Counted from the stretch's first letter, positions 8,045-33,059 are shown. The stretch is DNA of 64,000 nt from Microcella sp. (GCF_051860105.1 NZ_JBHYEO010000010.1:2832-66831); one strand, 5' to 3'. Numbers and translations: made by a program. Notes: generated by a model not told the origin, from the letters alone.

Positions 8045-8047
8045 CAG

Positions 8048-14916: not shown

Positions 14917-15246
14917 TCACCGTCTCGCTTGGTGGCCCCAGACGAGCGTTTCGCCGGAGGCATCCAAGGTGGCCTTGTCCACGCGAATGAGTCGTGGACC
15001 GAAGCGCTCCGCCCGGATGTAGCCCGCGCTGATCCACCGGCGGATGGTCACCGGGTCGACCCTGACGATCAGTGCGGCTTCCTGCATCGTGATCCACTCC
15101 GTGTCGGACGTGTCGGCTGCCAGTGCGATCTCTGCCTGAGACTTGCGTGCCATGTCTGCTTCTCCTCCCTCTGCGAGAACTCGATCGGAGTCTTCTCGCG
15201 GGTTCTCGTCGGCTTCACTCGATGTTTCAGCTGGACTTGAAAGCAC
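14917..15246 (-). CDS. Excisionase/MerR-type helix-turn-helix DNA-binding protein
   Basis: WITMQEAALIVRVDPVTIRRWISAGYIRAERFG is a typical excisionase-family HTH. The true start may be the internal Met (MARKSQ..., ~15153). Confidence 0.7.
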   Translation of the reverse strand: MLSSPAETSSEADENPREDSDRVLAEGGEADMARKSQAEIALAADTSDTEWITMQEAALIVRVDPVTIRRWISAGYIRAERFGPRLIRVDKATLDASGETLVWGHQARR

Positions 15247-18279: not shown

Positions 18280-18867
18280 TCAGCGACGGAAGTTCAAGGC
18301 GGTCATGCGCTGTTGTAGCTGCTTGAGCATGGCCAACCGGTCGGCACCCATAGCCCCCGCCCGCACCCGCCGCCCCTGATTTCGATACCAAATCGCCAGG
18401 CGCACCTCCGCCTTGTCATTGCTTCGACGACGAGGGCGGCGGCCGTGTTCACGCACGAAGAACTCGAACTGCTGCATCGAGTTCAGCCAGGCCTCCTCCG
18501 CCGGGCTCCACGACCACCCCGGAATCAAGTCCAGCCGTGCGCGCTGGTAGGCCGAGAGACGATAGAAGTTGCGTCGCTGATACCGAGCCCAAGCCACGAG
18601 GTGCTTCGCCGCGGGGAGGGGTTGCGTCGAGCGCAGCGTCGGCAGGCGGCCGTGGGTAGAAACATGCGCTTCAAGCTGCTGGCAGATAATCACCCACTGG
18701 CGATACCGCTTGGATGCCGATTCGGGATCGAGGGCCGCGAGATAGTGGTCGACTGCCTCGCTCGGTGCGAAGCGGCGCTGACGGGCTTCCTCTGACCACA
18801 GCTCGTGCAGTTGGTGAAGGCCTTCTGGGTTGGGGTGCACAGCACACCGGGTCCTTTCCGAGTGCAA
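18280..18867 (-). CDS. Helicase-associated (HA) domain repeat protein
   Basis: Two W-x(n)-EHGR/HGRLP units: QWVIICQQLEAHVSTHGRLP and WLNSMQQFEFFVREHGRRP. TTG start. Confidence 0.65.
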   Translation of the reverse strand: MHSERTRCAVHPNPEGLHQLHELWSEEARQRRFAPSEAVDHYLAALDPESASKRYRQWVIICQQLEAHVSTHGRLPTLRSTQPLPAAKHLVAWARYQRRNFYRLSAYQRARLDLIPGWSWSPAEEAWLNSMQQFEFFVREHGRRPRRRSNDKAEVRLAIWYRNQGRRVRAGAMGADRLAMLKQLQQRMTALNFRR

Positions 18868-19717: not shown

Positions 19718-20770
19718 CTAGACAGTCGGCGAGGTCACGTGCGCGTACACGTCGCCGACTTCACCAAAGTGGGAGGCGAATGCTTCCGTCCGGCCTCCGA
19801 GATAGATCAACACCGATGGGAACTGAGCCTCACCAGCCGAATCGCTGAACCGCAGTCGACCCCACAAGAAGCATCTTGGATAGGGCGCCAGAACGCGCAT
19901 CCACTGAGTGTTCGTCCGAGCAGGAAGCAACGCAATCGCTTCGGGGACATCTCCCGCTAGGTGATGGTCGTGAAGCTTCTGCACCCACTGCCGCGGCGAC
20001 CGATCAAATGGGGGGTTCAGGAACACTCGACCCCGCCACGCGTGCGCCAGCCCGTCGTCGCTGGCAGTGAAGTGGGTCTTCGCTGGCACCCAAGGAGCCT
20101 CGTGTGAGTTCGAGGCGGGGTCCAAGTCGATCGCGCCCAGGAACGACTCGATCCTATGAAGGAGATCTTTGGGTGTGTACCACTCCTGCGACCGAGAAGA
20201 CCGACGCATCCGGTAGTACTCCGCCGCGAGCACGCGGTCTTTACCGGCCGCGCGGATCAGCTCGGCAGCTGTTCGGATCGCCAGGATGCCAGCCTCGACG
20301 TCGTGAAGCATGTCTTCTGGACCGTGTTCCAGTAGGACGCGGCCGTCGCGAACGCTGCGCTCCGACACCCCCAACTTGTCGGCTGCTTGCCGTTGTGTGA
20401 CCTGATCAAGCGGCGCGTGTGCCGCTTGTGTCGCGCGTGCGCCGCCGTGTCCAAAGGTGGCCAGGCGGGCTGCGACCACGGCTCGTTGGCTTTCGGTGAG
20501 GTGGCGTCGGTGCAGATTGATGTCGACAACCCACGCCAACAGCTCGCTCTCTGAACGGGTCGTCGTGACGAACCGCGGTTGAACACCTGCGGCCTGGCAG
20601 GCGAGGAATCGGTTCCGGCCATCGACAATCGCGCCCGAAGTATCGAGGACGATCTGTTCGCGTAGCCCATGTGCGCGAATCGACTGGGTCAACTCACCAA
20701 GCGCATGCTGATCCATCAAGGGGAAGAAGTTGGCGAAGGCGTGCCACTGTCGCGCTGTCGACTCTTCCAC
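19718..20770 (-). CDS. ParB-like N-terminal domain fused to phage-type (Dam-like) N6-adenine DNA methyltransferase
   Basis: N-terminal IVLDTSGAIVDGRNRFLAC is a ParB/Srx-type motif. C-terminal WYTPKDLLHRIESFLGAIDLDPAS ... VFLNPPFDRS is typical of phage DNA N6-adenine methyltransferases. Confidence 0.8.
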   Translation of the reverse strand: MEESTARQWHAFANFFPLMDQHALGELTQSIRAHGLREQIVLDTSGAIVDGRNRFLACQAAGVQPRFVTTTRSESELLAWVVDINLHRRHLTESQRAVVAARLATFGHGGARATQAAHAPLDQVTQRQAADKLGVSERSVRDGRVLLEHGPEDMLHDVEAGILAIRTAAELIRAAGKDRVLAAEYYRMRRSSRSQEWYTPKDLLHRIESFLGAIDLDPASNSHEAPWVPAKTHFTASDDGLAHAWRGRVFLNPPFDRSPRQWVQKLHDHHLAGDVPEAIALLPARTNTQWMRVLAPYPRCFLWGRLRFSDSAGEAQFPSVLIYLGGRTEAFASHFGEVGDVYAHVTSPTV

Positions 20771-20921: not shown

Positions 20922-21824
20922 CTACAAGAGCGCGGTCGCCGGCGCCGTCATCCCGCGCAGAGTGCCAAGCTCGGCACTGTAGACGAATAAGGGCATTTCG
21001 GTTGCGGTTGCGAAGGCGATGGCTTCGGCTGTGTAACCCGCGCTGGTGAAGAAGAGGGCGCGCATGCCGCGGGATGCGGCGACGCCGAACAGCTCTCGAA
21101 CCTCAACCACGCTGACCTTGCCCTTGTAGTGCTTCACCTGCGCAACGGCGGTTTCAGAAGTGGCGTCGATGCCTCCGTCTGCACGTTCGGGTGTTGCTTG
21201 AGCGTCAAGGAAGCCGAGGTGGCGCATCCATTCGACAACAAGGAGTTCCGCGCCGCGAGGCGACGCTCCGTACGGCAGCGGTTGCGGAGCCGGGGCCGGT
21301 CGGCTGCGAATGAGCGCTGCTCGGGCTGCTTCTGCAGCAGCTTGCTCGGCTGCTTGCTCAGCGAAATGGCGCTCGCGGCTGTCTTCGATCTGTTGCTCGA
21401 ACGGCGCGAGGAACTCTTCGATGCGCTGCTCATACTGGTCTCGGAGCTCTCCCCAATCGTCGTCCCCGATGTCGACAGGACTGCTCACGCGACTGTCGCG
21501 AGTGGTACCTACCCCTTCTTCGCTGGCCATTCGGTGCATTGTTGCGGCGAAGATATCGACCTCGGGTGAGTGGTGTCCGCTGAGCTCACGGGGCAATTCT
21601 GTTGTCGAATACCTATTGTGTTTGTGGCGGCGGTGGAACACGAGTTCCCGAGTCGTGAGGCAGTACTGGATGCGCCGCCACCGGTCGTTCAGTCTGTTCG
21701 ACGTCAGTCGATTTAGATCCTCAAACGTGGGCTGCGCGATCGCGCCGCTGCGGTACGCGTCGATGGCGATCGTTGACAAAGCGATGACCGCGTTGTCAAT
21801 CTCCTCAGAGGTGAGGAGCGTCAT
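20922..21824 (-). CDS. Mrr-type (PD-(D/E)xK) restriction endonuclease domain protein with uncharacterised N-terminal region
   Basis: The C-terminal ~110 aa (AELLVVEWMRHLGF ... GGIDATSETAVAQVKHY ... ALFFTSAGYTAEA) match the Mrr_cat layout. The N-terminal ~190 aa carry no recognisable motif. Confidence 0.75.
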   Translation of the reverse strand: MTLLTSEEIDNAVIALSTIAIDAYRSGAIAQPTFEDLNRLTSNRLNDRWRRIQYCLTTRELVFHRRHKHNRYSTTELPRELSGHHSPEVDIFAATMHRMASEEGVGTTRDSRVSSPVDIGDDDWGELRDQYEQRIEEFLAPFEQQIEDSRERHFAEQAAEQAAAEAARAALIRSRPAPAPQPLPYGASPRGAELLVVEWMRHLGFLDAQATPERADGGIDATSETAVAQVKHYKGKVSVVEVRELFGVAASRGMRALFFTSAGYTAEAIAFATATEMPLFVYSAELGTLRGMTAPATALL

Positions 21825-22051: not shown

Positions 22052-22116
22052 CCAAGCGGAGGTTGGAGCCTTCTCCGCAATCGCCGAGGTGACGGGGTCT
22101 TCGCCTTCGGTATCAC

Positions 22117-22935
22117 TTGATCTCAAGAATGGCCTCCGGACGAGGCGATGCCGCGCATAGACATTGCGTGAACGAAAACGTGAACCCCAACCCCACCGCA
22201 GTCGTCGCCTTGCGCGCACAGAAGTTCAGCGGTCGCGCATCCGTATCGTGGCTCGATGCCACGGGCCAACTCCAGCGCGCCAATGCCGACTCGGCCTTGC
22301 TGGATCGCGAGCTCTACTTGGCCGAACCGATGCGTCGCGGCAATCACTACCCGCGCCAGCGCAACTACCACGGCTGGTACTACTTCTCCCAGACCTCCAG
22401 CCACGTGTGGTGCGAATCCAAGTTCGAAGCCTCGCAACTGGCCGCCCTCGATCAGGGCACGGGTGTGCTGGCGATCTCAAGCCAACCGATGAAAGTGCAG
22501 TTCGATGACGGGACCGAGCACTACCCCGACTTCCTCGCCTTGCACGACTCGCACCGGCAGGTCTTGTACGACGTAAAGCCGACGAAGTACCTGACGGAGA
22601 AGTACCTCGACCAGTTCGCCCGGACGAAGGCCATGTGCGATCGAGTCGGCTGGGGATACCGCGTTCTCACCGACTTCGATCCCATCGACGAGATCAACTT
22701 GCAGTGGATTCGCCAGTTCAAGCACCCCGGCTTCCACCCCGACCGCGCCGCCGTGAGACGACTGCTGCCCTGTTTGCCCGGTTCGCTGGCTATCGCCGCA
22801 GCCGCCCTGCAACCCGGCAACATGCCTCACGGCCGCGCCGGCATCTTCCACCTGCTGTGGCTGCGCACCCTCCACACCGCACCCGGCATCCGCCTGTCCG
22901 ACTCATCCGTGATCGAGGTGTCCCATGATGCGTGA
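22117..22935 (+). CDS. tnsA: TnsA-like endonuclease (Tn7-type transposition protein A)
   Basis: 272-aa ORF. The restriction-enzyme-like triad context is WCESKFE ... HYPDFLAL ... LYDVKPTKYL. It overlaps the tnsB start. The true start may be downstream of 22117. Confidence 0.85.
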   Translation: MISRMASGRGDAAHRHCVNENVNPNPTAVVALRAQKFSGRASVSWLDATGQLQRANADSALLDRELYLAEPMRRGNHYPRQRNYHGWYYFSQTSSHVWCESKFEASQLAALDQGTGVLAISSQPMKVQFDDGTEHYPDFLALHDSHRQVLYDVKPTKYLTEKYLDQFARTKAMCDRVGWGYRVLTDFDPIDEINLQWIRQFKHPGFHPDRAAVRRLLPCLPGSLAIAAAALQPGNMPHGRAGIFHLLWLRTLHTAPGIRLSDSSVIEVSHDA

Positions 22936-24871
22936 AGTAGACCTGACCGAGCCGCTTCAACTCGACACCGGCGTGTACGACGCGGTGCAGCGCGCCGGCA
23001 ACTGGATTCGACTCCGGCCCCACCACCCGGGAGAGCCGGTCGACATGCCCGTGTGGGAGCTATCGCGGCGCCTCGTCGGTGCCCACAGCTACACCATCTC
23101 GCCGCGGTCGATCGAGGTAGTGCCAGACGCTGCCCGCGACCACGCCTTCAGTTGGGAGCAGCATCTGGTCGAGATCGAAACCGGTCTCGGCCGCAACGGC
23201 GAGATGCGACCGCAGTACGACCCGTCCGCCACAAGTCAAGAACAGCGCGTGGCCGAGAAGATCAAGGAGCTCGCCGTCCACCACGGCCGCTCCGTGTCGC
23301 GGGCAACGGTCATGCGAAAGCTCAAGGAGTATCGCACCTGCGGTGTGGTCGGCCTCATCGACGGTCGCGCCACGCGCGCCCACGGACCGGTGGACCGACT
23401 GGATGAACGAGTACACGAAGCGTTGTGTCAGGTCATGGCCGCTCAAGCTCAGAAGTCGTCCGGCACGAAGTCCCGCATCATCAACCAAACCAGGGCCATG
23501 CTGCTGCGCACCTACGGCGCCGACGCTCCCGAGATGCCGTCACGCGCGACGATGTACCGCTACGTCGAGATCCTTGACGCTGGCCGCCACACGACCGGCC
23601 GCGCCACCACCAGGCGTTCGCAGGCGAACCGCCCCAAGCGCACCTTTGCCGACGCCAGCATGCTTCTTCCCGGCGCGCAGATTCAGATCGACTCCACCAA
23701 GCTGGACGTGTTGATTCAGGGCGCTGACGGCCCGGAGCGACCCACGCTGACGATCATGCTCGATGTGGCGACGCGCAGCATTTTGGCGTGGACATTGCGG
23801 TTGACCGCCACGAAGGGTGTCGACCACGCAGTGCTGCTGGCGCAAGCGCTCACCCCGTTCGAGAACCGGCCGTCCCGCACCGAGCATCGTGCTGCCGTGC
23901 GCGCACGGTTCCCGCACTTGGCTCTGCTCGGCGAGCAGGAGCATGAGCGGGCACGCCGCTCAGCACCGCACGTGTTCCCCCGGGCGGTCACGATCGACAA
24001 CGGCAGGGACTACGTCAGCGGCACGTTCACATCCGCGTTGAAGAAGTTCGGCATCGATGTCACCCTCTCCGCCCCCCACACCCCCACCGATAAGCCGCAC
24101 GTCGAGCGCACTTTCAGCTCGATCAACACGCTGTTCGTGCAGTACCTGCCGGGCTACGTCGGTAAGAGCCCAGTCGACCGCGGCTACAAGGTCGAGAACG
24201 ACACACTGCTGGACCTGTGGTCGCTGTACGAACTGTTCGACGACTTCGTTGCGCACGTGTGGCAGAACCGTCCTCATGAGGGCCTGACGGATCGGTACGA
24301 GCCGACGATCAAGCGCTCGCCCAATCAGATGATTGCTGTGGCGGCCGGCATCACCACGACTCTGAGCCTTCCGCTGACGGAGCGCGACTACATCGAACTA
24401 CTCCCCATCGAGCATCGCGCGATCGGATCCACAGGGATCCAACTCGGAAAGCGCTTCTATGACTCCGACCTGCTGCACCCGCTGCGCGGTGCCAAGAGCA
24501 GCATCCCCTCTCGGGGTGGCCGCTGGGCGGTGCACTACGACCCGTACAACTGGCAGACCGTGTGGCTGGTCGCCACTGACGGCGAACTGATTCCTTGCAC
24601 GGAGCGCAACGCACACCTGGCAGTTCACCCCTACTCGACGGAGTTCGACGACTCCCGTTGGCTGTTCGACGAAGACCCCGACAGCGCGGAGCCGGCCAGC
24701 GACGAGTACGAGGAAACGGAGCGCACCAAGATCGCCCGAGAAGGTGCCGCACTCGCCGGCGTCCCGATCCACCAGCCGCCTCTGCCCTCACCCGCCCGTG
24801 CTCCGCACGAGTGGGCACCGCTTCCGACCGACCTCGACGGCTACGACGTCTTCGACCCAGCAAAGGACTGA
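22925..24871 (+). CDS. tnsB: TnsB-like DDE (rve/Mu-type) transposase
   Basis: 648-aa ORF. DDE context is IQIDSTKLDV, VTIDNGRDYVS and PHVERTFSS. The N-terminus has HTH-like regions. Confidence 0.9.
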   Translation: MMREVDLTEPLQLDTGVYDAVQRAGNWIRLRPHHPGEPVDMPVWELSRRLVGAHSYTISPRSIEVVPDAARDHAFSWEQHLVEIETGLGRNGEMRPQYDPSATSQEQRVAEKIKELAVHHGRSVSRATVMRKLKEYRTCGVVGLIDGRATRAHGPVDRLDERVHEALCQVMAAQAQKSSGTKSRIINQTRAMLLRTYGADAPEMPSRATMYRYVEILDAGRHTTGRATTRRSQANRPKRTFADASMLLPGAQIQIDSTKLDVLIQGADGPERPTLTIMLDVATRSILAWTLRLTATKGVDHAVLLAQALTPFENRPSRTEHRAAVRARFPHLALLGEQEHERARRSAPHVFPRAVTIDNGRDYVSGTFTSALKKFGIDVTLSAPHTPTDKPHVERTFSSINTLFVQYLPGYVGKSPVDRGYKVENDTLLDLWSLYELFDDFVAHVWQNRPHEGLTDRYEPTIKRSPNQMIAVAAGITTTLSLPLTERDYIELLPIEHRAIGSTGIQLGKRFYDSDLLHPLRGAKSSIPSRGGRWAVHYDPYNWQTVWLVATDGELIPCTERNAHLAVHPYSTEFDDSRWLFDEDPDSAEPASDEYEETERTKIAREGAALAGVPIHQPPLPSPARAPHEWAPLPTDLDGYDVFDPAKD

Positions 24872-24873
24872 CC

Positions 24874-25926
24874 ATGTTCTTCCACTCCATCGATCGACCC
24901 GCCACCCTGAACCAACGCGAAGGGCTCATGCAGTACCTCCAGAACCCGCCGAGGCGACCAGAACTGCTCAACCGGGAGCAGCTCGCGGCGCTCAGCGAGC
25001 CGGCTCGGGCTGAGTACAACCGGCAGCGCATCGTGCACCTCTCCGGAGGCATCCTCATCAACACGCCGTACCTGATGACGGCCAAGAAGATGCTGGTCCG
25101 GAGCTTCGCCGCCAACGTCGGCCGCAACTCCGGTCACACGGGCCTGATGATCTCCGGCAACTCCACTGTCGGCAAGACCACCACCACCAAGGCACTGATG
25201 CAGTACACGTTCCTGCAGTACTGCAAACAGTTCCCCGACTTCGAAGCCCACAACCGCATCCCGATCGTCTACATCGAAGTGCCTGCAGCCTCCACCGCGA
25301 AGCTGCTCATGCGCACCTTCGCCGACTTCTTCGGTCTCAGCGTGCGCAATAGCGAGTCGATGGACAGCATCCGAAAACGCGTGATCGACACCCTGCACGA
25401 CGCCGGCACGCAGCTGATCGTGGTCGATGAACTGCACAACCTCGCCCACCGCAATGTCGGCAACGGCGACTCGGTCGATGTGCTGAAGAGCCTGCACAAC
25501 GACGTCGCCGCAACCTTCGTCTACGCCGGCATCGACCTGCTCAGCGGCAACCTCCTTGCCGGCACCCGCGGACAACAGATCGCCAGCCGGTTCGAGGCCC
25601 TCCAGATGCTCCCGTACCTGCCCCACGACACAGAGAGAGGCGACTGGGTCAAGCTCCTCGCCTCGTACGAGCGAGAGCTGCTTCTCACCGAGCACCCGTC
25701 TGGTTCCATTCCGGAGATGCGCGGCTACCTGTACGAGCGCACCAGCGGATCAGTCGGCAGCCTCAGCCGACTGCTCAGTAGCGCCGCGATCGAAGCCATC
25801 ACGAACCGGGAGCTGCCCGAGGTGATCACCCAAGCGCTTCTGGAAACCATCCGCGTGGACCACACAGCAGAGGCCCGCCGCCGTGCGACCGAAAAGCTTC
25901 TCGAACCAGACATCGACTTCAGCTGA
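24874..25926 (+). CDS. tnsC: TnsC/TniB-like AAA+ ATPase
   Basis: Walker A is ISGNSTVGKTTTTKAL and Walker B is LIVVDELHNL. Start taken at ATG 24874, 2 nt after the tnsB stop. The track ORF start at 24595 overlaps tnsB. Confidence 0.88.
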   Translation: MFFHSIDRPATLNQREGLMQYLQNPPRRPELLNREQLAALSEPARAEYNRQRIVHLSGGILINTPYLMTAKKMLVRSFAANVGRNSGHTGLMISGNSTVGKTTTTKALMQYTFLQYCKQFPDFEAHNRIPIVYIEVPAASTAKLLMRTFADFFGLSVRNSESMDSIRKRVIDTLHDAGTQLIVVDELHNLAHRNVGNGDSVDVLKSLHNDVAATFVYAGIDLLSGNLLAGTRGQQIASRFEALQMLPYLPHDTERGDWVKLLASYERELLLTEHPSGSIPEMRGYLYERTSGSVGSLSRLLSSAAIEAITNRELPEVITQALLETIRVDHTAEARRRATEKLLEPDIDFS

Positions 25927-27794
25927 TGCCAGCCGAACGCACCTTCCCCTTCTCCGTCCGCCCACTTCACCGCGAGACGATCGACAGCTACACACGCCGA
26001 CTCCTGCTGGCCAACCACGAAGACCCCGGCCTGCCCAAACGCCTGATGCGCGCCCACGATGCAGAGGGCTCAGAATCCGTCACCTGGCTTGAGGTGCTCG
26101 CTGCGAAGACGGGCCGCGGAGAGCTGCACCTCGAAGCACCAGTAGGCGGGCTGATCACCCACCGCGACGGCGGCCACTGCGGCCAATGCGCTGAACTCAC
26201 GCCGGCACGAAGACTCTGCACCCACTGCTCTCACGGCGCCGTTGTTGAGCAGCATGCCCACGTCGACTCACCCGTCTGTCGACGTCACCGTCGATGGGTG
26301 GGCTTCGACGCCGTGCCCCAACGGCCCGTGAGCCCCGAACTGCTCACTGCAGAACGACAGCTACGCCGCGTGCACCGCGACGGCCGCTATGAGCACCGCA
26401 TTTTCCTGGTCCTCCTTCGCACGCTCGCCCCTGATTGGTCCGCTCAATCTGCGGCCTTTCCGCTGGCCGTTCGCATTCTCCAATCGGTGACCAGCTGCGC
26501 ATTCTTGGCCCGTCTGCTCGACCCGAGCATCACCTACGCCGACGCGCATCGGCTGCTTGCCGAGGTCGTTGCGCTACACACCTCGAACCAAGAAGTGGTC
26601 CGAGCTCTCTGGCTCTCCCTGCGGGTCGTGTTCGCGTCGATCCACCTCAGCCGGCATCGAGGCGGCCCCATCCCCGAGCCATGGGCCCACGCTTTCCCGA
26701 TCGCGCCCGAGCTGCTCGCCAGCTCGTCGGTGGCTGCCGCGCCGTTCGAGTCGTTCAGCGGATTCCTCACTGCCGTCAACGTCACGCTGGAAGACGCGGT
26801 CGACTTCGAAGTGCAGCACCACCTGCTGCAACTCGACCCGGACGAGCACGCCAAATACCGCACGGCCTGCGGCAACGGGCACCTTCTACTCACCGCCGCC
26901 AACCGACGCCGATTCGGCGCCTGCCAGACCTGCGGGCATGGCGTACGCCCCGGCATCAACGACATCTACACCCTCGCGCCTCGACTCGTGTCGGAATGGG
27001 ATGCAGAAGCAAACGGAGGCGCAATGCCCGAGAATTTCGCCGCTGGCAGCTCCGAGAAGCGGTGGTGGCGGTGCGCACACGGACACCCATTCGCTGCCAC
27101 GCCGAGCAATCGACACATCAACAAGTCACGATGCCCCGTCTGCATGAACCGGTTGATCGTCGCCGGCGTGAACGATTTGATGACGACCCATCCAGAGATC
27201 GCGGGGGAGATCGACGATGACTTCGCTCCGGCCCTCCTCTCTAAGGCATCCGATCACATCACGTCCTTCCGCTGCCCCAGCGGACACCGCTACCAGAGGC
27301 GCATCGTCGACCGCGTTGCCGGAAAGGGATGCCTGACGTGCACGGAAGACGGCCTGAGGGCTTCAAAGCAGAGCATCGTTGACACGCACCCTGAGGTCGC
27401 GAATGAGTGGCACCCGTGGCGCAACCATCAGCGGAAGCCTGAGCACTTCAGCTTCGGGTCACGAGAGACCGCCTGGTGGCTATGTCCGCGAGGCCACGCG
27501 TTTGAGTCCCGCATCGAGCGTCGAACCCGGGCCAACTACCGGTGCGGAATGTGCAGCAAGCGTGAGTTCGCCCCCGGCGTCAACGATCTCGCGACTACCG
27601 ACCCCGAACTCGTTCTCGAATGGCATCCCCACAAGAACTCGGCCAGCGCCAGTGAGCTGATGTCGATCGACAAGCTGTTCTGGTGGAAGTGCATTGCGAG
27701 CGGGCATGAGTACGAGCAGACCGTTGACCATCGTCGCAAGTCCATGGGTTGCCCCCAGTGTGATCCTGCTGACCGTGTAATGCATCGGGCGTAG
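25926..27794 (+). CDS. tniQ: TniQ-family target-selector protein with C-terminal array of five zinc-ribbon repeats
   Basis: N-terminal FSVRPLHRETIDSYTRRLLLANH is TniQ-like. A Cys cluster HCGQCAE...CTHCSHG follows. The C-terminal half contains five C-x2-GH...C-x2-C units separated by GxND(L/I)..T.P.L..EW linkers. The start overlaps the tnsC stop (TGATG). Confidence 0.85.
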   Translation: MPAERTFPFSVRPLHRETIDSYTRRLLLANHEDPGLPKRLMRAHDAEGSESVTWLEVLAAKTGRGELHLEAPVGGLITHRDGGHCGQCAELTPARRLCTHCSHGAVVEQHAHVDSPVCRRHRRWVGFDAVPQRPVSPELLTAERQLRRVHRDGRYEHRIFLVLLRTLAPDWSAQSAAFPLAVRILQSVTSCAFLARLLDPSITYADAHRLLAEVVALHTSNQEVVRALWLSLRVVFASIHLSRHRGGPIPEPWAHAFPIAPELLASSSVAAAPFESFSGFLTAVNVTLEDAVDFEVQHHLLQLDPDEHAKYRTACGNGHLLLTAANRRRFGACQTCGHGVRPGINDIYTLAPRLVSEWDAEANGGAMPENFAAGSSEKRWWRCAHGHPFAATPSNRHINKSRCPVCMNRLIVAGVNDLMTTHPEIAGEIDDDFAPALLSKASDHITSFRCPSGHRYQRRIVDRVAGKGCLTCTEDGLRASKQSIVDTHPEVANEWHPWRNHQRKPEHFSFGSRETAWWLCPRGHAFESRIERRTRANYRCGMCSKREFAPGVNDLATTDPELVLEWHPHKNSASASELMSIDKLFWWKCIASGHEYEQTVDHRRKSMGCPQCDPADRVMHRA

Positions 27795-27831
27795 GTCTTG
27801 TTGGCGGACAGTTGGTGGTCACCCGGCGCTT

Positions 27832-29598
27832 CTAGCCTGTCCCTGCCTGGTCGCTTGTATCCCTTTCCACCGCGCTGAGGTCAGAGCTTTCGGCGAGCAA
27901 TCGGTCTGCCTCTGCAGAGATAGCGGCGATCTCTCGCCCTGCATCGCTACGCGCTTCATCCGCGCCGATGATCGACTCCTGCGCCGCTCGGATCCCGTCG
28001 ATCAATGCCTCCATTCGCGGGTCGACTACGCTGGCGAGTTGACTACGCGCGTTCGCGGAAATCCTGTCCGCGTGCCCCATGATCTCGGTGACGAACGCGG
28101 CGTGCTGCCGGTCGCCCGCTACCTGGGTACGTCGCGCTTCGCGCTCATCTCTCCAGATTTCGTACCCGGCGCTTCCGATCTGCACCACGAAGCCAGCCAC
28201 CTTTACGGCCTTGCCGATCTTGTCAGCGATCTTCACTGCTTCCCACGGCGCGAACTTCTTGTCGAAGACGACGTGGCCGACCTCCTTGACCATCTTGTGG
28301 CCGGCGGTGCCAGCCGAGTTGCGTACCCCGTCACCGGCACCCCACCATGTCCGGCCTTGCTTGAGTTGCTCCACCACCCGGGTCAAGTCAATCTCGCGTG
28401 ATGCACGCTCTTGCGGCCTCTGACGTCCCGCTGAGCGCCCTGTCTCTGTGTCTAGCTCGACGGGTCCGTCAAGGATGATTTCCCCTGCTGCCATCAGGAG
28501 TTGACCCGCCCTGTTGCCTTGCTCGATTTCAAGTAGCTGCTCGGTCAGTTTCGTGGTCTGAACCTCGACCAAGCGATTGACGACGTCGGCGAACTGTTGG
28601 GCGTGGCGACCCAGAGCATCTGCGAGTCGTTCTTTCGCTTCGGCCAAGATCAATCGCGCCTCGGCATCGTCTGCCGGGACGCTCGTCGCGGTGTCCACGA
28701 ATCCGATCACGTCTACGCGGCAGGCTGACTTGAAGGTGTCCTCTGCTGACTTGAAGAGATGATCGATCATGTTGCGCCGCTCGGCCGCGGCCGCATGCTG
28801 ACTCGCAAGCAGGCTCAACGCCAATTTGGAGTTGTCATCCGGTACAAAGAGCTCCTGTGCTTCGTCACACAGTTGACGGACAAGGTGGATCGGTTGCCTC
28901 AGCTGGGCAAGATCGCCACGCGCCACGCTGATGGTATTGATCGCACTACGTAATGAGTCGATCCCTGATCGGGCTCGCAACTGCTCCGACCTGGGGCCCC
29001 CTTCAAGACTTCTCAGGTAGTAAACCGAGTCCACCTCCACGATGGGGAGCGTGAACGAACTGGTGCCTAGAGCTCCGTGGACTTCGTTTTCTCGGATCCC
29101 CGGAGCCGCCGACTGCATTCCAGATTGAGTGATGACCACGATCGTTTGGCCGTGAAGCCGCAAGTCAATTGTGATGCGCCGAAGATACTCACTTGCCGCA
29201 TTGTCGAGAAGGCCCACGTTCACTACAAACAGAATGAAGTCAGCATCCCCCACGGCCGCCCTCGCCTTGTCATCGTGCTCCCTGAGCCCCGACTTCACGC
29301 CCGGCGTGTCGACGAGAACAACAGCGCCATCCCACTCATATGGCGTCACTTCGTCGGTCGCAATATCAGCGTGACTGATGGGCCGAACTGCTCCGTCCGT
29401 GAGCGCTTCAATGAGTTTGGACTTCCCACTGCTGTATTGGCCGGTGAGCACCATCATGGGCTTCTCGCGCGGTTCCGACTTCGCCCTCGCAAGGAGATCC
29501 GACGCGATCGGCCCCGGCTGGCGCGAAAGCACCGTCCGGAGACGGACTATGAGGTCATTGCCTTCGGTGGCAAGTTCGTGGACGAGCATGTGAGTCAC
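27832..29598 (-). CDS. Bacterial dynamin-like GTPase (LeoA-like)
   Basis: 588-aa ORF. P-loop is LTGQYSSGKSKL and G3 is LVDTPGV, followed by a long helical stalk region. The GTG start overlaps the TGA of the upstream gene (GTGA at 29595-29598). Confidence 0.8.
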   Translation of the reverse strand: MTHMLVHELATEGNDLIVRLRTVLSRQPGPIASDLLARAKSEPREKPMMVLTGQYSSGKSKLIEALTDGAVRPISHADIATDEVTPYEWDGAVVLVDTPGVKSGLREHDDKARAAVGDADFILFVVNVGLLDNAASEYLRRITIDLRLHGQTIVVITQSGMQSAAPGIRENEVHGALGTSSFTLPIVEVDSVYYLRSLEGGPRSEQLRARSGIDSLRSAINTISVARGDLAQLRQPIHLVRQLCDEAQELFVPDDNSKLALSLLASQHAAAAERRNMIDHLFKSAEDTFKSACRVDVIGFVDTATSVPADDAEARLILAEAKERLADALGRHAQQFADVVNRLVEVQTTKLTEQLLEIEQGNRAGQLLMAAGEIILDGPVELDTETGRSAGRQRPQERASREIDLTRVVEQLKQGRTWWGAGDGVRNSAGTAGHKMVKEVGHVVFDKKFAPWEAVKIADKIGKAVKVAGFVVQIGSAGYEIWRDEREARRTQVAGDRQHAAFVTEIMGHADRISANARSQLASVVDPRMEALIDGIRAAQESIIGADEARSDAGREIAAISAEADRLLAESSDLSAVERDTSDQAGTG

Positions 29599-31775
29599 TG
29601 TCGGTCTCCTTCATCGATTCGTACGTGAATGCCTGTGTGCGCACGGGCCAGCGACTCCCACGCCTCCCGTACTCCTGAGGGCAAGGGGTCCGGATAGGAA
29701 AGCACCAAGCGGTCTTCATCCATGTGCTTGACCGTGATCTCCTGCTCCGAGAGGTTTCGCATGATGTGAAGCGCCTGCGTTGCCGGAGCATCACCGACCC
29801 AGACCGGCATGATCCGTTCCACGGCCTCAGACGGAGGGAACAACACGAGCTCGCTGTAACACGGCTCCGCCACGTCAACTACGTAGCCTGCACCGCGCCA
29901 TCGTGTTGCCTTGCGCACAGAGTCCGCGTTCCGACTGCGTCCGGTCAGCTTCAAGATTTCGCGGCTCAGCTCTGCGTCCAGTACACCGATTCCGGACTCG
30001 ATCTTCTCAGCTGCCTTCTCTAGTTTCGCAATTGCACGTGGCAACGCAGCCATGACCCTCGACTGGCGCGAAAGCTCGAACTGGACTGCCGCTGTCCAGT
30101 CTTCACGCACCCTCATCGCCGCCGAACCAAGGTCAAGTTCAAGCTGTGTGAGGAGCGGAGAGAGCTGCTCTCTCATGCGCTTCCTACGTCGCGTGTGAAG
30201 CTCGGTTGGAGAGGTGAACGCGCGGTCACCAATCCAGTCGATCAGACGGTTCACCCCCAGCAGTGAGGCGACGAGGCCGATCACGGCGCCAAGCACAAGC
30301 CCGACGGCATTTCCAACCCCGGGCCCAAGAAAGGTGCCGATCAGGGCCCCGACTTTCGCGCCTCCAATCGTGCCTGCGATGCCCACCAAGACTCGACCCC
30401 CTGCTTTCACCGCACGGTTTCCCCAGATCGCACCGCGAAGACCGAGGTTCTTGAATCCTCCAGATTCAAAGTGCGCCCAGTCCTCCGCAACGTCTATTGC
30501 GATCGTCCTCAAGTCCTCCACCAGTCGATCCCCGATCGAAGTTGCGGCCTGCGCCAGGCGGACTCGAAGAGTGTCGACTTCCTCCGCCCAACGGCGATTG
30601 ATCTCTTTAGCAGGCTGATCTACGTCGACCTCCTCAATCCACCGCTCCCGGGATCTGACTTCTGAGGTGAAGGTTCCCTCCAGTTCGTCGGCTGCATCCT
30701 GAACCCTTCGAAGTGCACGGATCCGGAAGCTCTCGCGGCTCCCGACCATTGCCTCGTATGCCGCCTGGAGGGCCCACGTTTCGCCAACAAGAGCACTGGA
30801 TGTTTCCGTTAGCTCGATTTGAGCGGCGTCAAACAAACTGACCACGCGTCGCTGAGTCGCGGTGCGATCCCGCTGGTCGGCCAACGCTGAAACAAGCGCG
30901 TCAATCCGACTGTTGGTGCGCAGAACTGCCGACAACTGCTCGTCCAACCCACCCCCCACGGAAAGGAGAGCCGCCTGCGCGTGGAAAGGGACGGCGTGTA
31001 AATACATGCCACCCGCCCGTGCAAGGTGTCGTCGGATTGGCGCGAGATTCCCTTCAGCGTCACCGCCGAATACGAGCTCCGGCTCTTCCACAAAGTCGAG
31101 GAGTCCATCCTCGTTGGTGACATCCTTGAGACAGTTCAGTGCCACAAGAATCGGCTTCCCCATGTCAGCCAGTCGTTCGAGGGCCTCACCGGTCTCGGCT
31201 TGAGTGGCCTGAGTTGGGGCCACCCAGAGAACTAGGTCCGCGTTCGCGACTTCCGCAAAGGCGGCCGCGTAGTCCTCTTCACCGTCATGCGCCCCAACGC
31301 CAGGCGTGTCGACAATCTCGATACCGAGAGCCAAGGCCTCCCGTCGCTGGGCATGCCTGGTGAACCTCTGACGACCATCCCCTACCAGGTCTCCTGAACC
31401 GCCGGACAGATACTCGAAAAGCGTGCTCTTTCCAGCCTTGGTGCGTCCCATGAGTACGACCCGGAACGGTAGATCAACATCTCTCTCCGCGATCTGGTCG
31501 AGAACGAGTTGAAGGCGCGCTTCGGCATCTCGCAAACGGGTGACAGTGGGGTCGAGGGTTGACTGCGCTCCCGCAAGGACGCTCAACGATTCGATTTCCG
31601 CCGCGGCAGTGTCGAGTCCTTCGACGAGATCCCTCCCGACCTGCGAGAGCAGCGACTTCAACGTCAATAGCGGCGTCTCGCCATCGGAGTCGGGACCATA
31701 GAAGAGATGACGGGCCCACTCTTTGCCGACACTCGCGGACCGCCCCGAGACCGTCCAGCTCATTTGCTGGTCCAC
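29595..31775 (-). CDS. Bacterial dynamin-like GTPase with glycine-zipper membrane paddle (LeoBC-like)
   Basis: 726-aa ORF. P-loop is LMGRTKAGKSTL and G3 is IVDTPGVG. The hydrophobic Gly-rich segment is GGRVLVGIAGTIGGAKVGALIGTFLGPGVGNAVGLVLGAVIGLVASLLG. Confidence 0.8.
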   Translation of the reverse strand: MDQQMSWTVSGRSASVGKEWARHLFYGPDSDGETPLLTLKSLLSQVGRDLVEGLDTAAAEIESLSVLAGAQSTLDPTVTRLRDAEARLQLVLDQIAERDVDLPFRVVLMGRTKAGKSTLFEYLSGGSGDLVGDGRQRFTRHAQRREALALGIEIVDTPGVGAHDGEEDYAAAFAEVANADLVLWVAPTQATQAETGEALERLADMGKPILVALNCLKDVTNEDGLLDFVEEPELVFGGDAEGNLAPIRRHLARAGGMYLHAVPFHAQAALLSVGGGLDEQLSAVLRTNSRIDALVSALADQRDRTATQRRVVSLFDAAQIELTETSSALVGETWALQAAYEAMVGSRESFRIRALRRVQDAADELEGTFTSEVRSRERWIEEVDVDQPAKEINRRWAEEVDTLRVRLAQAATSIGDRLVEDLRTIAIDVAEDWAHFESGGFKNLGLRGAIWGNRAVKAGGRVLVGIAGTIGGAKVGALIGTFLGPGVGNAVGLVLGAVIGLVASLLGVNRLIDWIGDRAFTSPTELHTRRRKRMREQLSPLLTQLELDLGSAAMRVREDWTAAVQFELSRQSRVMAALPRAIAKLEKAAEKIESGIGVLDAELSREILKLTGRSRNADSVRKATRWRGAGYVVDVAEPCYSELVLFPPSEAVERIMPVWVGDAPATQALHIMRNLSEQEITVKHMDEDRLVLSYPDPLPSGVREAWESLARAHTGIHVRIDEGDRQ

Positions 31776-32087
31776 GGCAAGTTGGAGACGGGCACCTGGG
31801 AGAACATGGGGCCTTGCCCTCCTTCAGCGTCGTACTGACTTGAGATCGCAAGGATGACTGGCTGCTCTCGGCCGATGTCGTAAATGATATGACATCAACA
31901 ATGTCGCCCGTCTGCCGCGAAGTGCCGCCGGAGGAACGACGAGTTCCAGACTTAGCATTCTTCGACGTGCCGCATCGCGCTCAGATAGCCGCCCAGAGGA
32001 CCTACCCCCTTTGTGCGCTGCGTGCCGTCGGACACGTCAACTTGCTCCTAACGGACGAGTGTTTCGCGAACGCGCGAGCAGATGCGA

Positions 32088-32684
32088 CTACGGAACAACG
32101 TGAACGATCAACTTCCCCGAGAATCTGTCCCAGGCAAGCTGCACGACCACCTTCGCGCCCGCTGGAACATCGATCGCAGCGGAACGGAACGATGACTTGA
32201 ACTTCAAGACTCCCTTTCCTTGGCGATTGACCTGGAGGCTCTCGTCGCGACCAACCTCACCGACGGGCACTTCGTTCCAGAGGACCTTCACACGAGGATT
32301 CACGGCGAACATCTCTCTGTATCCGCGAACTGAGACCTCCGTTGGCCGGGCGCCATCGTTCGTGTCGAGGGCAGAACTCGCGCGTGTGCCAACGTCGGGT
32401 GTCACGGGCCGAGTCGGTGCCTGGCGGGAATTAGCCTCGGTGTTCGTCGTCCGGTACTGGGGCGTTGGAATCGCAGTATCCGAAGGTCTCGGCCGCTTGT
32501 AGAAGGAAATGGCGATCAGACCAACGCCCGCTACAAACAAGAGCAGAGCATCCAGCACGCGTGCGCCGGCATCGATCGCCCCGAGCGTTCCCCCCGGTCC
32601 AGGGCGGCCGCCATTCCAATTGAGTAACCCGATCACGAGGAAGAAGAGCAGTGCAAAGCCCAGGATTCTGACGAAGATTCGCAT
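32088..32684 (-). CDS. Hypothetical membrane protein (two predicted TM helices plus a C-terminal soluble domain)
   Basis: Start taken at MRIFVRILGFALLFFLVIGLL (ATG 32684). A second hydrophobic helix is LLLFVAGVGLIAISF. The C-terminal ~90 aa look beta-rich. No motif recognised. Confidence 0.55.
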   Translation of the reverse strand: MRIFVRILGFALLFFLVIGLLNWNGGRPGPGGTLGAIDAGARVLDALLLFVAGVGLIAISFYKRPRPSDTAIPTPQYRTTNTEANSRQAPTRPVTPDVGTRASSALDTNDGARPTEVSVRGYREMFAVNPRVKVLWNEVPVGEVGRDESLQVNRQGKGVLKFKSSFRSAAIDVPAGAKVVVQLAWDRFSGKLIVHVVP

Positions 32685-32941: not shown

Positions 32942-33059
32942 ACTGTCAGCCGCTCCTGCGGCGTCGCGCCGCTCCCGCGCGACGAGCGCGGTCGCCGCGC
33001 TTCGCGTCCCGGCTCGCGCCGAGCCGGCCGCCGCTCCTGCGGCGCAGCGCGCTCCGCGG

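What the first reader, a model, noticed from the sequence alone, without database searches (positions are those of the whole stretch)
22117..32684. Tn7-like transposition module (TnsA-TnsB-TnsC-TniQ) whose only downstream cargo is a dynamin-like GTPase cassette
- Four tightly coupled genes (overlaps or 2-nt gaps) encode a TnsA-type endonuclease (E/D/K context), a DDE TnsB, an AAA+ TnsC/TniB and a TniQ selector. This is the heteromeric Tn7 architecture rather than Tn5053-type, because tnsA is present.
- Everything from the tniQ stop to the abrupt GC rise at ~32.9 kb is three accessory genes: two dynamin-like GTPases and a membrane protein.
- Tn7-like elements are known vehicles for defence cargo. 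I do not recall a well-described actinobacterial element with this selector and this cargo.
- I could not find canonical TGT...ACA termini or TnsB-site arrays. There is no TGT at all in 21841-22250. The element is therefore either atypical, decayed, or bounded elsewhere.
Basis: partly seen in the sequence, partly recalled or inferred. Interest (0 to 1): 0.7.

Follow-up and report, generated by a model that had tools for sequence, protein, structure and literature searches.

The report
Large Tn7-like defence-island transposon, one end
The four genes are a real Tn7-type transposition module, but they sit at the far right of a much larger mobile element (at least 33 kb, running off the left edge of the window) packed with anti-phage systems, and its target-choosing protein carries an unusual string of zinc ribbons.

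Summary
tnsA (22117-22935), tnsB (22925-24871), tnsC (24874-25926) and a TniQ-family gene (25926-27794) are tightly coupled and intact. The three genes downstream are a known dynamin-like defence system, Eleos (LeoA and LeoBC), plus a small membrane protein.

The proposed boundaries are wrong. A genuine transposon end lies at 32948. It has three TnsB-site-like motifs in its last 110 bp and aligns with the ends of at least six related elements. No end lies upstream of tnsA or anywhere else in 1-32.8 kb.

Two complete relatives (Glaciibacter, Cryobacterium) show the family layout: tRNA-Gly(CCC), then end, cargo, tnsA-B-C-tniQ, end, with 5-bp target duplications. The low-GC block at 1-22 kb is therefore most likely cargo. 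It holds an MmeI-type enzyme with a helicase, Wadjet, an Abi_C protein, Mrr, a Dam-like methylase and other genes. The other end lies outside the window.

The selector is a TniQ core fused to five CHCC zinc ribbons (four match DUF4379). I found no description of this architecture.

Verdict: a real but largely expected Tn7-like defence-cargo transposon from an uncharacterised actinobacterial clade, with a moderately novel selector. Its attachment site was not determined.

The parts
1..940 (-). N-terminal part of a DEAD/ResIII-type helicase that runs off the left edge of the window. It is the partner of the MmeI-like gene. Probable cargo.
   Evidence: Open frame. It is 90% identical to a Microbacterium helicase encoded next to an 894-aa MmeI homologue. 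GC 0.60.
1019..3703 (-). MmeI-family type IIG/IIL restriction-modification enzyme (cargo).
   Evidence: All five MmeI Pfam domains match, with E-values down to 5e-96.
3838..6353 (-). N6_Mtase protein (3838-5826) and NYN-domain protein (5823-6353) (cargo).
   Evidence: Pfam matches.
6911..13430 (-). Wadjet system: jetD, jetC, jetB, jetA (cargo).
   Evidence: Pfam JetD_C/DUF3322, SMC-like, DUF4194 and DUF3375. The same JetCBA block lies upstream of tnsA in L002 and L155.
13555..14385 (+). Abi_C (abortive infection C-terminus) protein (cargo).
   Evidence: Pfam Abi_C, 68.7 bits.
14917..15246 (-). Small HTH_17 (Xis/MerR-like) DNA-binding protein.
   Evidence: Pfam HTH_17, 31.6 bits.
15227..16030 (-). 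Metallophosphoesterase. An accessory gene found repeatedly in this transposon family.
   Evidence: Pfam Metallophos. Homologues lie upstream of tnsA in L030 and L007 and in L159.
18280..18867 (-). HA (helicase-associated) domain protein. An accessory gene found repeatedly in this family.
   Evidence: Pfam HA. Homologues lie 0.6-3 kb upstream of tnsA in L003, L006, L007, L014 and L030 and in L159.
19718..20770 (-). ParB-like/HTH plus Dam-type N6-adenine methyltransferase.
   Evidence: Pfam Dam and PADLOC orphan MTase. It is 74% identical to genes upstream of tnsA in L002, L033 and L155.
20922..21824 (-). Mrr_cat restriction endonuclease-like protein (cargo).
   Evidence: Pfam Mrr_cat, 53.4 bits.
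22117..22935 (+). tnsA, the endonuclease subunit of the heteromeric transposase.
   Evidence: NF033179 at 140 bits (cutoff 110) and Pfam TnsA-like_N. E/D/K motif contexts CES, PDF and DVK are read directly from the sequence.
22925..24871 (+). tnsB, the DDE transposase.
   Evidence: rve plus Mu-transpos_C. D256, D358 and E394 are invariant in 29 homologues. 281 homologues, mostly Microbacteriaceae.
24874..25926 (+). tnsC, the AAA+ regulator (TniB family).
   Evidence: Pfam TniB, 63.8 bits. Walker A and B motifs are intact.
25926..27794 (+). Target selector. A TniQ-like core (about residues 1-300, with its own Cys/His cluster) is fused to five CHCC zinc ribbons, four of which match DUF4379.
   Evidence: DUF4379 x4, E = 1e-42. 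hhalign to a Pfam-positive TniQ gives probability 97.5%, E = 7.5e-12. All zinc ligands are invariant. AF2 pLDDT is 86-88.
27832..29598 (-). leoA, a dynamin-like GTPase of the Eleos system.
   Evidence: PADLOC LeoA, 180.8 bits over residues 44-567. Pfam MMR_HSR1 and Dynamin_N.
29595..31775 (-). leoBC, the second dynamin-like GTPase of Eleos.
   Evidence: PADLOC LeoBC, 173.3 bits over residues 79-623.
32088..32684 (-). 198-aa protein with two N-terminal hydrophobic helices. No family hit.
   Evidence: Translation. No Pfam, NCBIfam or PADLOC hit. Called as a 198-aa gene in Logan contig L032.
32838..32948 (-). tniQ-proximal transposon end. The terminus at 32948 reads, from outside inward, TGACAGTTCTCAATCCAGATGAGAT. 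Three TnsB-site-like motifs lie at 32924-32948, 32905-32923 and about 32838-32866.
   Evidence: The motif regex hits only here in the 64 kb. A PWM built from relatives alone scores this site 29.3 bits, against 9.2 for the best hit elsewhere in the window. It aligns with the ends of L002, L003 and L031. Matching ends were also found in L014, L016, L033 and L159.
32949..33059 (.). Host flank: an 86% GC intergenic region downstream of the Abhydrolase_9 gene. It begins GCCGCTCC. The putative 5-bp target duplication would be GCCGC.
   Evidence: The same first 7 nt flank the ends of L002 and L033.

Best explanation
**What it is.** The window holds the right-hand 32.9 kb or more of a large Tn7-like cut-and-paste transposon from a Microbacteriaceae-specific lineage. 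The core machinery is at the far right. It consists of TnsA and TnsB (the heteromeric transposase), TnsC (the AAA+ adaptor) and a TnsD-like selector. The selector has a TniQ core followed by five tandem CHCC zinc ribbons.

**Boundaries.** The element ends at 32948 with three TnsB-binding-type motifs. Everything to the left is most likely cargo: Mrr, a Dam-type methylase, HA-domain and Metallophos proteins, Abi_C, Wadjet, an N6-MTase with an NYN protein, and an MmeI-like enzyme with a helicase. The second end lies beyond window position 1.

**The Leo cassette.** The Eleos genes leoA and leoBC and a membrane protein occupy a secondary cargo slot between tniQ and the end.

**Inferred mechanism.** This follows the Tn7 paradigm and the complete relatives. 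The selector binds a conserved host gene and recruits TnsC. TnsA and TnsB then excise the element and insert it with a 5-bp duplication. In three relatives the conserved host gene is tRNA-Gly(CCC).

**Shown:**
- gene identities
- the right end
- the family architecture, target duplications and tRNA-Gly attachment site in relatives

**Inferred:**
- that 1-22 kb belongs to the same element
- that the zinc-ribbon array reads the attachment site
- that this copy is still mobile
- what its own attachment site is
For: **(1) Tn7 core confirmed.**

**(2) Right end identified.**
- The motif TCTCA[AG]N3-8T[GT]AGA occurs only at 32848-32941 in the 64 kb.
- A PWM built from relatives only gives 29.3 bits at 32923-32948, against 9.2 for the best hit elsewhere in the window.
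- A four-way alignment of ends shows a conserved three-site architecture ending in CA.

**(3) Complete relatives.**
- L031 spans 3517-15120. It has 26-nt inverted repeats at 96% and a TCCAC duplication. It starts 1 nt after tRNA-Gly(CCC).
- L016 spans 765-15130. It has a CCGTG duplication and starts 3 nt after tRNA-Gly(CCC).
- In both, cargo lies between the tRNA-proximal end and tnsA, and tniQ stops about 180 bp from the other end.
- L158 also abuts tRNA-Gly(CCC).

**(4) No second end in the window.** No end motif occurs in 1-32.8 kb in either orientation, and GC stays at 0.60-0.65 to position 1.

**(5) The upstream genes travel with the tns genes.**
- HA-domain and Metallophos homologues lie upstream of tnsA in six relatives.
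- Dam lies upstream of tnsA in L002, L033 and L155, and JetCBA in L002 and L155.
- Against L002, Jet is 68.5% and tns 67.3% identical at the nucleotide level. The chromosomal flank is about 83% identical at the nucleotide level and 82% at the amino-acid level.

**(6) Selector.** hhalign probability is 97.5% to a TniQ that passes the Pfam threshold. Three of 16 homologues hit Pfam TniQ weakly. All Cys/His ligands are invariant.

**(7) Eleos.** LeoA scores 181 bits and LeoBC 173 bits.
Against: - The left end, the target duplication and the attachment site of this copy were not seen, so unity of the 33-kb block is inferred.
- The terminal trinucleotide is TCA, not the family's ACA. This could reduce activity.
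- Window, L002 and L033 sit in the same chromosomal neighbourhood with the same 7-nt flank. That is also compatible with one old insertion inherited vertically.
- The selector does not hit Pfam TniQ directly.
- A confident AF2 model of its N-terminal domain found no TniQ or TnsD structure by Foldseek.
- L158 shows the opposite orientation relative to the tRNA, so the family's orientation rule is not settled.
Confidence: 0.75

Rival explanations
1. A fixed, no-longer-mobile remnant. An ancestral Tn7-like insertion was inherited vertically in this Microcella-like lineage. Its left end has been lost or scrambled. The tns genes and right end persist inside a defence island that grows by other means.
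For: - The same chromosomal neighbourhood and the identical 7-nt flank GCCGCTC occur in the window, L002 and L033.
- The terminal ACA is mutated to TCA in the window.
- The MmeI-helicase module also occurs outside any Tn7 context, in L034.
- No left end is visible.
Against: - All four tns ORFs are full length with catalytic and Walker residues intact.
- The three end motifs are preserved.
- The element is much more diverged between genomes (67% nt) than the flanking chromosome (83% nt). This fits independent acquisition of different variants better than co-descent, although faster evolution could mimic it.
- Cargo differs modularly between relatives.
Confidence: 0.15
2. The transposon runs only from just upstream of tnsA (about 21.8-22.1 kb) to about 32.9 kb. 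It has a degenerate tnsA-proximal end as in canonical Tn7. The 1-22 kb block is an unrelated neighbouring island.
For: - Canonical Tn7 has tnsA next to its right end (established knowledge).
- A 292-bp intergenic gap precedes tnsA.
- The Microbacterium sister subfamily has three GTCTCA repeats 180-230 bp upstream of tnsA.
Against: - The best PWM score in 21.5-22.3 kb is 4.9 bits, against 29.3 at the real end.
- There is no TGT there at all.
- Complete relatives place 5.7-8.4 kb of cargo between the end and tnsA.
- Family-specific accessory genes (HA, Metallophos, Dam) lie further upstream in the window.
- There is no GC step at 22 kb.
Confidence: 0.05
3. The left boundary lies inside the window but is too diverged or truncated to detect, for example between jetA and the Metallophos gene at about 13.4-15.2 kb. 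The element would then be about 18-19 kb, and Wadjet and MmeI would belong to an older island or to a tandem element.
For: - In L030 the conserved block starts at a 125-aa gene and Metallophos, right after host genes, and its ends escape the PWM.
- L006 shows a second, oppositely oriented end 1.5 kb beyond its own right end, which suggests tandem elements occur.
Against: - JetCBA is linked to Dam and tnsA in L002 and L155, at the same divergence as the tns genes.
- The best left-orientation PWM hit (15118, 9.2 bits) lies inside the HTH_17 ORF.
- There is no clustering of GTCTCA/TGAGAC hexamers anywhere except at 32.8-32.95 kb.
Confidence: 0.05

Closest known systems
Tn7 (E. coli; TnsABC+D pathway, attTn7 downstream of glmS)
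   Same: - Heteromeric TnsA plus DDE TnsB transposase, an AAA+ TnsC and a TniQ-family selector in one operon.
- Ends carrying several TnsB-type sites and finishing in CA.
- In relatives, 5-bp target duplications and insertion just downstream of a conserved host gene.
   Different: - No TnsE.
- The selector's C-terminal region is five zinc ribbons (DUF4379) rather than the HTH domains described for TnsD-like proteins (PMC10293859).
- In two complete relatives the tns operon abuts the end distal to the attachment site and reads outward, with the main cargo between the att-proximal end and tnsA. In Tn7, tnsA abuts the att-proximal right end (established knowledge).
- The attachment site in relatives is tRNA-Gly(CCC), not glmS.
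Actinobacteria-dominated clade of Tn7-like transposons (clade 2 of Benler et al. 2021, PMC8649781) and NCBIfam NF033179 TnsA_like_Actin
   Same: - Host phylum.
- TnsA passes the curated NF033179 cutoff.
- Defence-rich cargo, including Wadjet, which that survey lists for actinobacterial Tn7-like elements.
   Different: - That survey gives no experimental characterisation. In the parts I could search, it gives no description of the selector architecture, the tRNA-Gly attachment site or Eleos cargo.
- I did not test whether this element falls phylogenetically inside that clade.
Eleos (formerly 'Dynamins') anti-phage system, LeoA and LeoBC; ETEC LeoABC dynamin-like proteins (PMC4159319; 10.1101/2022.12.12.520048)
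   Same: Two adjacent dynamin-like GTPases that match the PADLOC LeoA and LeoBC models nearly end to end.
   Different: - Divergent: NCBIfam LeoA/HP0731 scores only 49.8 bits against a cutoff of 325.
- An extra 198-aa membrane protein lies next to it, and its link to the system is untested.
- Defence activity was not tested.
Archaeal Tn7-family TniQ proteins with tandem C2H2 zinc-finger DNA-binding domains (bioRxiv 10.1101/2025.07.27.667033)
   Same: Same concept: a TniQ core fused to a tandem array of small zinc modules as the presumed reader of the attachment site.
   Different: - A different zinc fold (CHCC treble-clef/zinc-ribbon DUF4379, not C2H2).
- A bacterial host.
- No evidence here that the array binds DNA.

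Membership tests
Tn7-like transposon (heteromeric transposase type) | TnsA-type endonuclease encoded with the transposase | tested here: met
   NF033179 at 140.2 bits (cutoff 110). Pfam Tn7_TnsA-like_N at 28.5 bits (cutoff 26.5). E/D/K contexts are present.
Tn7-like transposon (heteromeric transposase type) | DDE (rve-fold) TnsB transposase with a Mu-type C-terminal domain | tested here: met
   rve at 33.0 bits (cutoff 32.6) and Mu-transpos_C at 22.6 bits (cutoff 21.7). The D256/D358/E394 columns are invariant.
Tn7-like transposon (heteromeric transposase type) | AAA+ TnsC/TniB regulator | tested here: met
   Pfam TniB at 63.8 bits (cutoff 22.4). Walker A and B motifs are present.
Tn7-like transposon (heteromeric transposase type) | TniQ/TnsD-family target selector | tested here: inconclusive
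   For:
- hhalign probability 97.5%, E = 7.5e-12, to L009 TniQ, which itself passes Pfam TniQ at 28.4 bits (cutoff 27).
- Three of 16 homologues hit Pfam TniQ weakly.
- The predicted helical, zinc-finger, helical layout fits the published core (PMC10293859).

Against:
- No direct Pfam or NCBIfam hit.
- No PDB sequence hit.
- No Foldseek hit to TniQ or TnsD.
Tn7-like transposon (heteromeric transposase type) | Two inverted ends (TGT...ACA), each with several TnsB-binding sites | tested here: inconclusive
   One end was found, at 32838-32948, with three sites. Its terminus is TCA rather than ACA. The other end is not in the window. Both ends were found in relatives L016 and L031.
Tn7-like transposon (heteromeric transposase type) | 5-bp target-site duplication | not testable with these tools
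   The left junction lies outside the window and the source contig is not retrievable. The feature is met in relatives: TCCAC in L031 and CCGTG in L016.
Tn7-like transposon (heteromeric transposase type) | Insertion at a specific attachment site next to a conserved host gene | not testable with these tools
   L016, L031 and L158 all abut the 3' end of tRNA-Gly(CCC). The window has no tRNA. Its right flank begins GCCGCTCC, which resembles the 3' end of that tRNA but also recurs in the flank itself.
Tn5053/Tn402-type (TniA-TniB-TniQ-TniR) | No TnsA; a resolvase (TniR) is present | tested here: not met
   tnsA is present. No resolvase was found among the ORFs scanned in 1-33 kb.
CRISPR-associated transposon (CAST) | cas genes and a CRISPR array within the element | tested here: not met
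   There are no repeat arrays in 1-34 kb and no Rfam hits. No Cas model hit among the ten proteins put through PADLOC, and no cas-type domain appeared in the Pfam scans.
Eleos (LeoA/LeoBC) defence system | Adjacent LeoA and LeoBC dynamin-like GTPases | tested here: met
   PADLOC LeoA at 180.8 bits (residues 44-567 of 588) and LeoBC at 173.3 bits (residues 79-623 of 726). The genes overlap by 4 nt.
Eleos (LeoA/LeoBC) defence system | Protection against phage | not testable with these tools
   This needs an experiment.

The most novel reading that the evidence does not exclude
This Microbacteriaceae lineage may use a previously undescribed kind of Tn7 target selector. It would be a TniQ core fused to a modular array of five CHCC zinc ribbons (DUF4379) that reads a tRNA-Gly(CCC) gene. 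The transposition operon would sit at the end away from the attachment site, and there would be two cargo slots. If the ribbons recognise DNA in a modular way, the array could be a natural, possibly re-targetable, protein-guided homing module.
Probability: 0.3. Interest if true: 0.65.

Novelty: new variant of a known kind. Interest (0 to 1): 0.42.

Why it matters
- **Annotation.** A compact four-gene transposition module can mark one edge of a much larger mobile defence island. Here the island is at least 33 kb and carries seven or more defence-type modules. Naive boundaries drawn by the Tn7 rule that tnsA sits at the end would mis-assign the cargo in this actinobacterial lineage.
- **Mobility of Eleos.** It adds Eleos (dynamin-like GTPases) to the defence systems seen riding on Tn7-like elements.
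- **An uncharacterised selector.** The selector architecture (TniQ plus a DUF4379 zinc-ribbon array) is widespread in Microbacteriaceae. In three relatives it goes with insertion next to tRNA-Gly(CCC). This is directly testable by protein-DNA binding and transposition assays.
- **Limits.** None of this overturns current understanding of Tn7-like elements.

Tried and rejected
- **Long terminal inverted repeats.** I searched within 1-34 kb, and between tnsA-upstream and downstream regions in eight loci. Nothing beyond chance was found. The ends became visible only after a complete relative (L031) supplied the motif.
- **First genome-contig scan.** A scan with the single TnsB sequence found nothing. 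A 29-sequence alignment was too diverse to use. A 10-sequence alignment worked.
- **Reaching the left end through exact-protein look-ups.** Look-ups of MmeI, JetD and N6-MTase were not on record. The source contig (94.7 kb) is not retrievable. Only fragmentary Logan contigs from the same sample were obtained (L001, L032).
- **Helicase homologue search.** It gave a 90% relative in a different, non-Tn7 context.
- **Empty-site search in metagenomes.** A search with 40 nt of the right flank gave no hits.
- **Junction pattern CCGCTCC-N1-4-TGWCAGTTC in metagenomes.** It returned 120 loci, all chance matches by PWM. The pattern was too short.
- **Candidate left end at 15118 (9.2 bits).** Rejected, because it lies inside an HTH_17 ORF.
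- **Structural confirmation of the TniQ core.** The full-length model hits only DUF4379 mitoribosomal proteins. The N-terminal model has no significant PDB neighbour.
- **Plasmid search with the selector.** Only DUF4379 arrays in unrelated proteins were found.
- **Ends of L030.** They could not be defined.

Full report
**1. Observation**

The region contains four co-oriented, tightly coupled genes:
- tnsA, 22117-22935
- tnsB, 22925-24871 (11-nt overlap with tnsA)
- tnsC, 24874-25926 (2-nt gap)
- a fourth gene, 25926-27794 (1-nt overlap in TGATG)

The family assignments are as follows.
- TnsA passes NCBIfam's curated cutoff for NF033179 'TnsA_like_Actin' (140.2 bits, cutoff 110). It also passes Pfam Tn7_TnsA-like_N.
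- TnsB passes rve and Mu-transpos_C narrowly. It keeps D256, D358 and E394, which are invariant in 29 homologues.
- TnsC matches TniB at 63.8 bits and has intact Walker A and B motifs.
- The fourth protein does not hit Pfam TniQ. It has four DUF4379 treble-clef zinc-finger domains in its C-terminal half.

Downstream, on the minus strand, lie two dynamin-like GTPases and a 198-aa protein with two hydrophobic helices. GC content is 0.60-0.65 from position 1 to about 32.9 kb and 0.72 or more afterwards. The 110 bp after 32948 are 86% GC.

**2. What the cargo genes are**

The two GTPases match the PADLOC models LeoA (180.8 bits) and LeoBC (173.3 bits) almost end to end. Together they form the Eleos (formerly 'Dynamins') anti-phage system (10.1101/2022.12.12.520048; PMC4159319).

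The 22 kb upstream of tnsA is a dense defence island:
- an MmeI-family enzyme plus a helicase that runs off the left edge of the window
- an N6-MTase plus an NYN protein
- a full Wadjet operon, jetABCD
- an Abi_C protein
- an HTH_17 protein
- a metallophosphoesterase
- an HA-domain protein
- a ParB/Dam-type methylase
- an Mrr-like nuclease

There are no tRNAs, CRISPR arrays or Rfam families in the window.

**3. Finding the ends**

Self-comparison gave no terminal inverted repeats.

TnsB has 281 homologues, mostly in Microbacteriaceae. An alignment-based genome scan returned 17 actinobacterial loci, all with the same tnsA-B-C order. In most of them a homologue of the fourth gene follows.

The Glaciibacter psychrotolerans locus L031 has a 26-nt inverted repeat at 96%: TGTCAGTTCTCAAGCTACTTGAGACT at 3517 and its complement ending at 15120. 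It is flanked by a TCCAC direct repeat. The left end starts 1 nt after a tRNA-Gly(CCC) gene.

Cryobacterium glucosi L016 has the same structure. It spans 765-15130, has a CCGTG duplication, and its left end starts 3 nt after tRNA-Gly(CCC).

With this motif the window's right end is unambiguous:
- The sequence ...AGTCTCAACTAGCTGAGAAATCTCATCTGGATTGAGAACTGTCA ends at 32948.
- The pattern TCTCA[AG]N3-8T[GT]AGA occurs only at 32848-32941 in the 64 kb.
- GTCTCA/TGAGAC hexamers cluster only there.
- A PWM trained on relatives alone scores the terminus 29.3 bits. The adjacent second site scores 10.4, and the best hit elsewhere in the window scores 9.2.

Aligning this end with those of L002, L003 and L031 shows a conserved three-site architecture over about 110 bp, ending in CA. 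The window's terminal triplet is TCA where all relatives have ACA.

**4. The left boundary is not at tnsA**

- The best PWM score in 21.5-22.3 kb is 4.9 bits.
- In the two complete relatives, 5.7-8.4 kb of cargo lies between the tRNA-proximal end and tnsA. In both, tniQ stops about 180 bp from the other end.
- The gap between tniQ and the end is also about 175-190 bp in L002, L014, L033 and L159.
- That gap is 1.4-1.6 kb in L158 and L003, and 5.15 kb in the window, where the Leo cassette sits.

Genes upstream of tnsA in the window recur upstream of tnsA in relatives:
- HA-domain proteins in L003, L006, L007, L014 and L030, with a faint HA match in L159
- Metallophos in L007, L030 and L159
- the Dam-type methylase in L002, L033 and L155
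- JetCBA in L002 and L155

Between the window and the Microcella MAG L002, the Jet block is 68.5% and the tns block 67.3% identical at the nucleotide level. The chromosomal PIF1-helicase gene to the right is about 83% identical at the nucleotide level and 82% at the amino-acid level. Jet, Dam and tns therefore share one history, distinct from that of the chromosome.

No end motif in either orientation exists in 1-32.8 kb, and an ORF crosses position 1. The most economical reading is a single element of at least 32.9 kb whose other end is outside the window.

I could not retrieve that flank. Exact-protein look-ups failed. Logan contigs from the same sample are fragmentary.

**5. The selector**

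Eighteen homologues align over their full length. The N-terminal ~300 residues carry the motif R..FPF.VRP.HRET..SYTRRLL.AN and an invariant H/C cluster (H79, C85, C88, C98, C101, H112, C118, H121).

The C-terminal half has five CHCC units:
- C315/H319/C333/C336
- C383/H387/C403/C406
- C450/H454/C469/C472
- C520/H524/C540/C543
- C589/H594/C609/C612

Pfam recognises four of these as DUF4379.

A profile of the family aligns to the 300-aa fourth gene of the Microbacterium subfamily (L009) with hhalign probability 97.5% and E = 7.5e-12. That protein itself passes Pfam TniQ (28.4 bits, cutoff 27). Three of 16 N-terminal domains hit Pfam TniQ weakly.

AF2 models are confident: pLDDT 85.7 for the full length, and 88.1 with pTM 0.84 for the N-terminal domain. 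They show the helical, zinc-finger, helical layout described for the TniQ/TnsD core (PMC10293859). Foldseek found no TniQ or TnsD structure, only DUF4379 mitoribosomal factors for the C-terminal half.

I therefore treat TniQ membership as probable but not fully demonstrated.

Published TnsD-like selectors are described with HTH-rich C-terminal regions (PMC10293859). Tandem C2H2 fingers are reported for archaeal TniQs (10.1101/2025.07.27.667033). I found no paper that links DUF4379 to Tn7. DUF4379 arrays also occur in unrelated proteins on Rhodococcus and Streptomyces plasmids.

**6. Attachment site**

Three relatives with a tRNA in range all abut the 3' end of tRNA-Gly(CCC).
- L016 and L031 abut it with the tns-distal end, at 1-3 nt.
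- L158 (a Rhodoglobus MAG) abuts it with the tniQ-proximal end, at 17 nt and in the opposite relative orientation. The spacer looks like a 13-nt scar of another end.

The orientation rule is therefore unsettled.

The window's own site is unknown. Its right flank begins GCCGCTCC. The same first 7 nt flank the ends of L002 and L033, after which the flanks diverge: a PNPOx gene start there, the Abhydrolase_9 3' region here. CCGCTCC equals the 3' terminus of the tRNA-Gly genes seen in relatives, but the motif also recurs three times in the window's GC-rich flank. I record this as unexplained.

**7. Mechanism**

This is inferred from the Tn7 paradigm and is established knowledge rather than something tested here. 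The selector binds the attachment gene and TnsC bridges to TnsA/TnsB. TnsB binds the multiple end sites, and TnsA and TnsB cut the two strands at each end. The element inserts with a 5-bp duplication. The cargo, including Eleos, Wadjet and the restriction-type systems, rides along.

Intact catalytic motifs and a conserved end argue for a functional or recently functional machine. The TCA terminus and the shared insertion site with L002 and L033 leave room for a fixed copy.

**8. Comparison and novelty**

Tn7-like transposons with defence cargo are well documented. They include an uncharacterised Actinobacteria-dominated clade and Wadjet cargo in Actinobacteria (PMC8649781). NCBI curates a model for the actinobacterial TnsA. 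The element is therefore a member of a known kind.

What appears undescribed:
- the TniQ plus DUF4379-array selector
- the tRNA-Gly(CCC) association in this lineage
- the layout with the tns operon at the end distal to the attachment site in two relatives
- Eleos as cargo

I rate it a new variant of a known kind, of moderate interest.

**9.

It is wrong on extent, on the absence of termini, and on the Leo cassette being the only cargo.

Noticed in passing
window 1-3703: The MmeI-family enzyme and its DEAD/ResIII helicase partner are 78-80% identical at the nucleotide level to a module in Microbacterium sp. NIBRBAC000506063 (L034). There it sits in a different island, with T5orf172, GmrSD and an IS30-like gene, and with no Tn7 ends. 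It looks like a defence cassette that moves independently.
   Followed up: partly
window 32949-33059: The host flank is 86% GC. It contains the small hairpin-forming 15-mer GCCGCTCCTGCGGCG twice (32949 and 33030) and a third CCGCTCC at about 32970. The first copy starts exactly at the transposon junction. Two Logan contigs from the same sample (L001, L032) break inside this region.
   Followed up: partly
L158 16349-16367: In the Rhodoglobus MAG, the 17-nt spacer between the element end and the 3' end of tRNA-Gly(CCC) resembles the first 13 nt of another transposon end. On the tRNA strand it reads TGTTGAGTTCTTG, and it lies 2 nt from the tRNA. This may be the scar of an earlier insertion. The element is flipped relative to L016 and L031.
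   Followed up: partly
L006 18022-18047 and 19563-19588: In the Frigoribacterium MAG, a right-end-type site (17.9 bits) is followed 1.5 kb later by a left-end-type site (25.4 bits). This suggests two elements in tandem.
   Followed up: no
L009 8733-8782 (also L010, L011, L013, L015, L017, L018): The Microbacterium sister subfamily has three direct GTCGGAGTCTCACGAA repeats 180-230 bp upstream of tnsA. It has two TniQ paralogues (300 and 380 aa) and no DUF4379 array. The repeats point the same way as right-end sites in the window's family, which I could not reconcile with a simple tnsA-proximal end.
   Followed up: partly
L002 12161-12550 and L033 12022-12408: In the two closest relatives, the PNPOx-family gene that flanks the element starts at a GTG inside the last 15 bp of the transposon end. 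The insertion therefore supplies, or replaces, the first five codons of a host gene.
   Followed up: no
window 15227-16030 and 18280-18867: A metallophosphoesterase and an HA-domain protein recur upstream of tnsA across diverged members of the family, in six or more loci. They may be conserved accessory genes of the transposon rather than cargo. Their function is unknown.
   Followed up: partly
L157 (Rhodococcus erythropolis plasmid pR09L01) 6863-8686: A 607-aa 'zinc-ribbon domain-containing protein' with a DUF4379 array is 36% identical to the selector's C-terminal half. It occurs on Rhodococcus and Streptomyces plasmids with no Tn7 genes nearby. The array is therefore a reusable module of unknown function.
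   Followed up: partly
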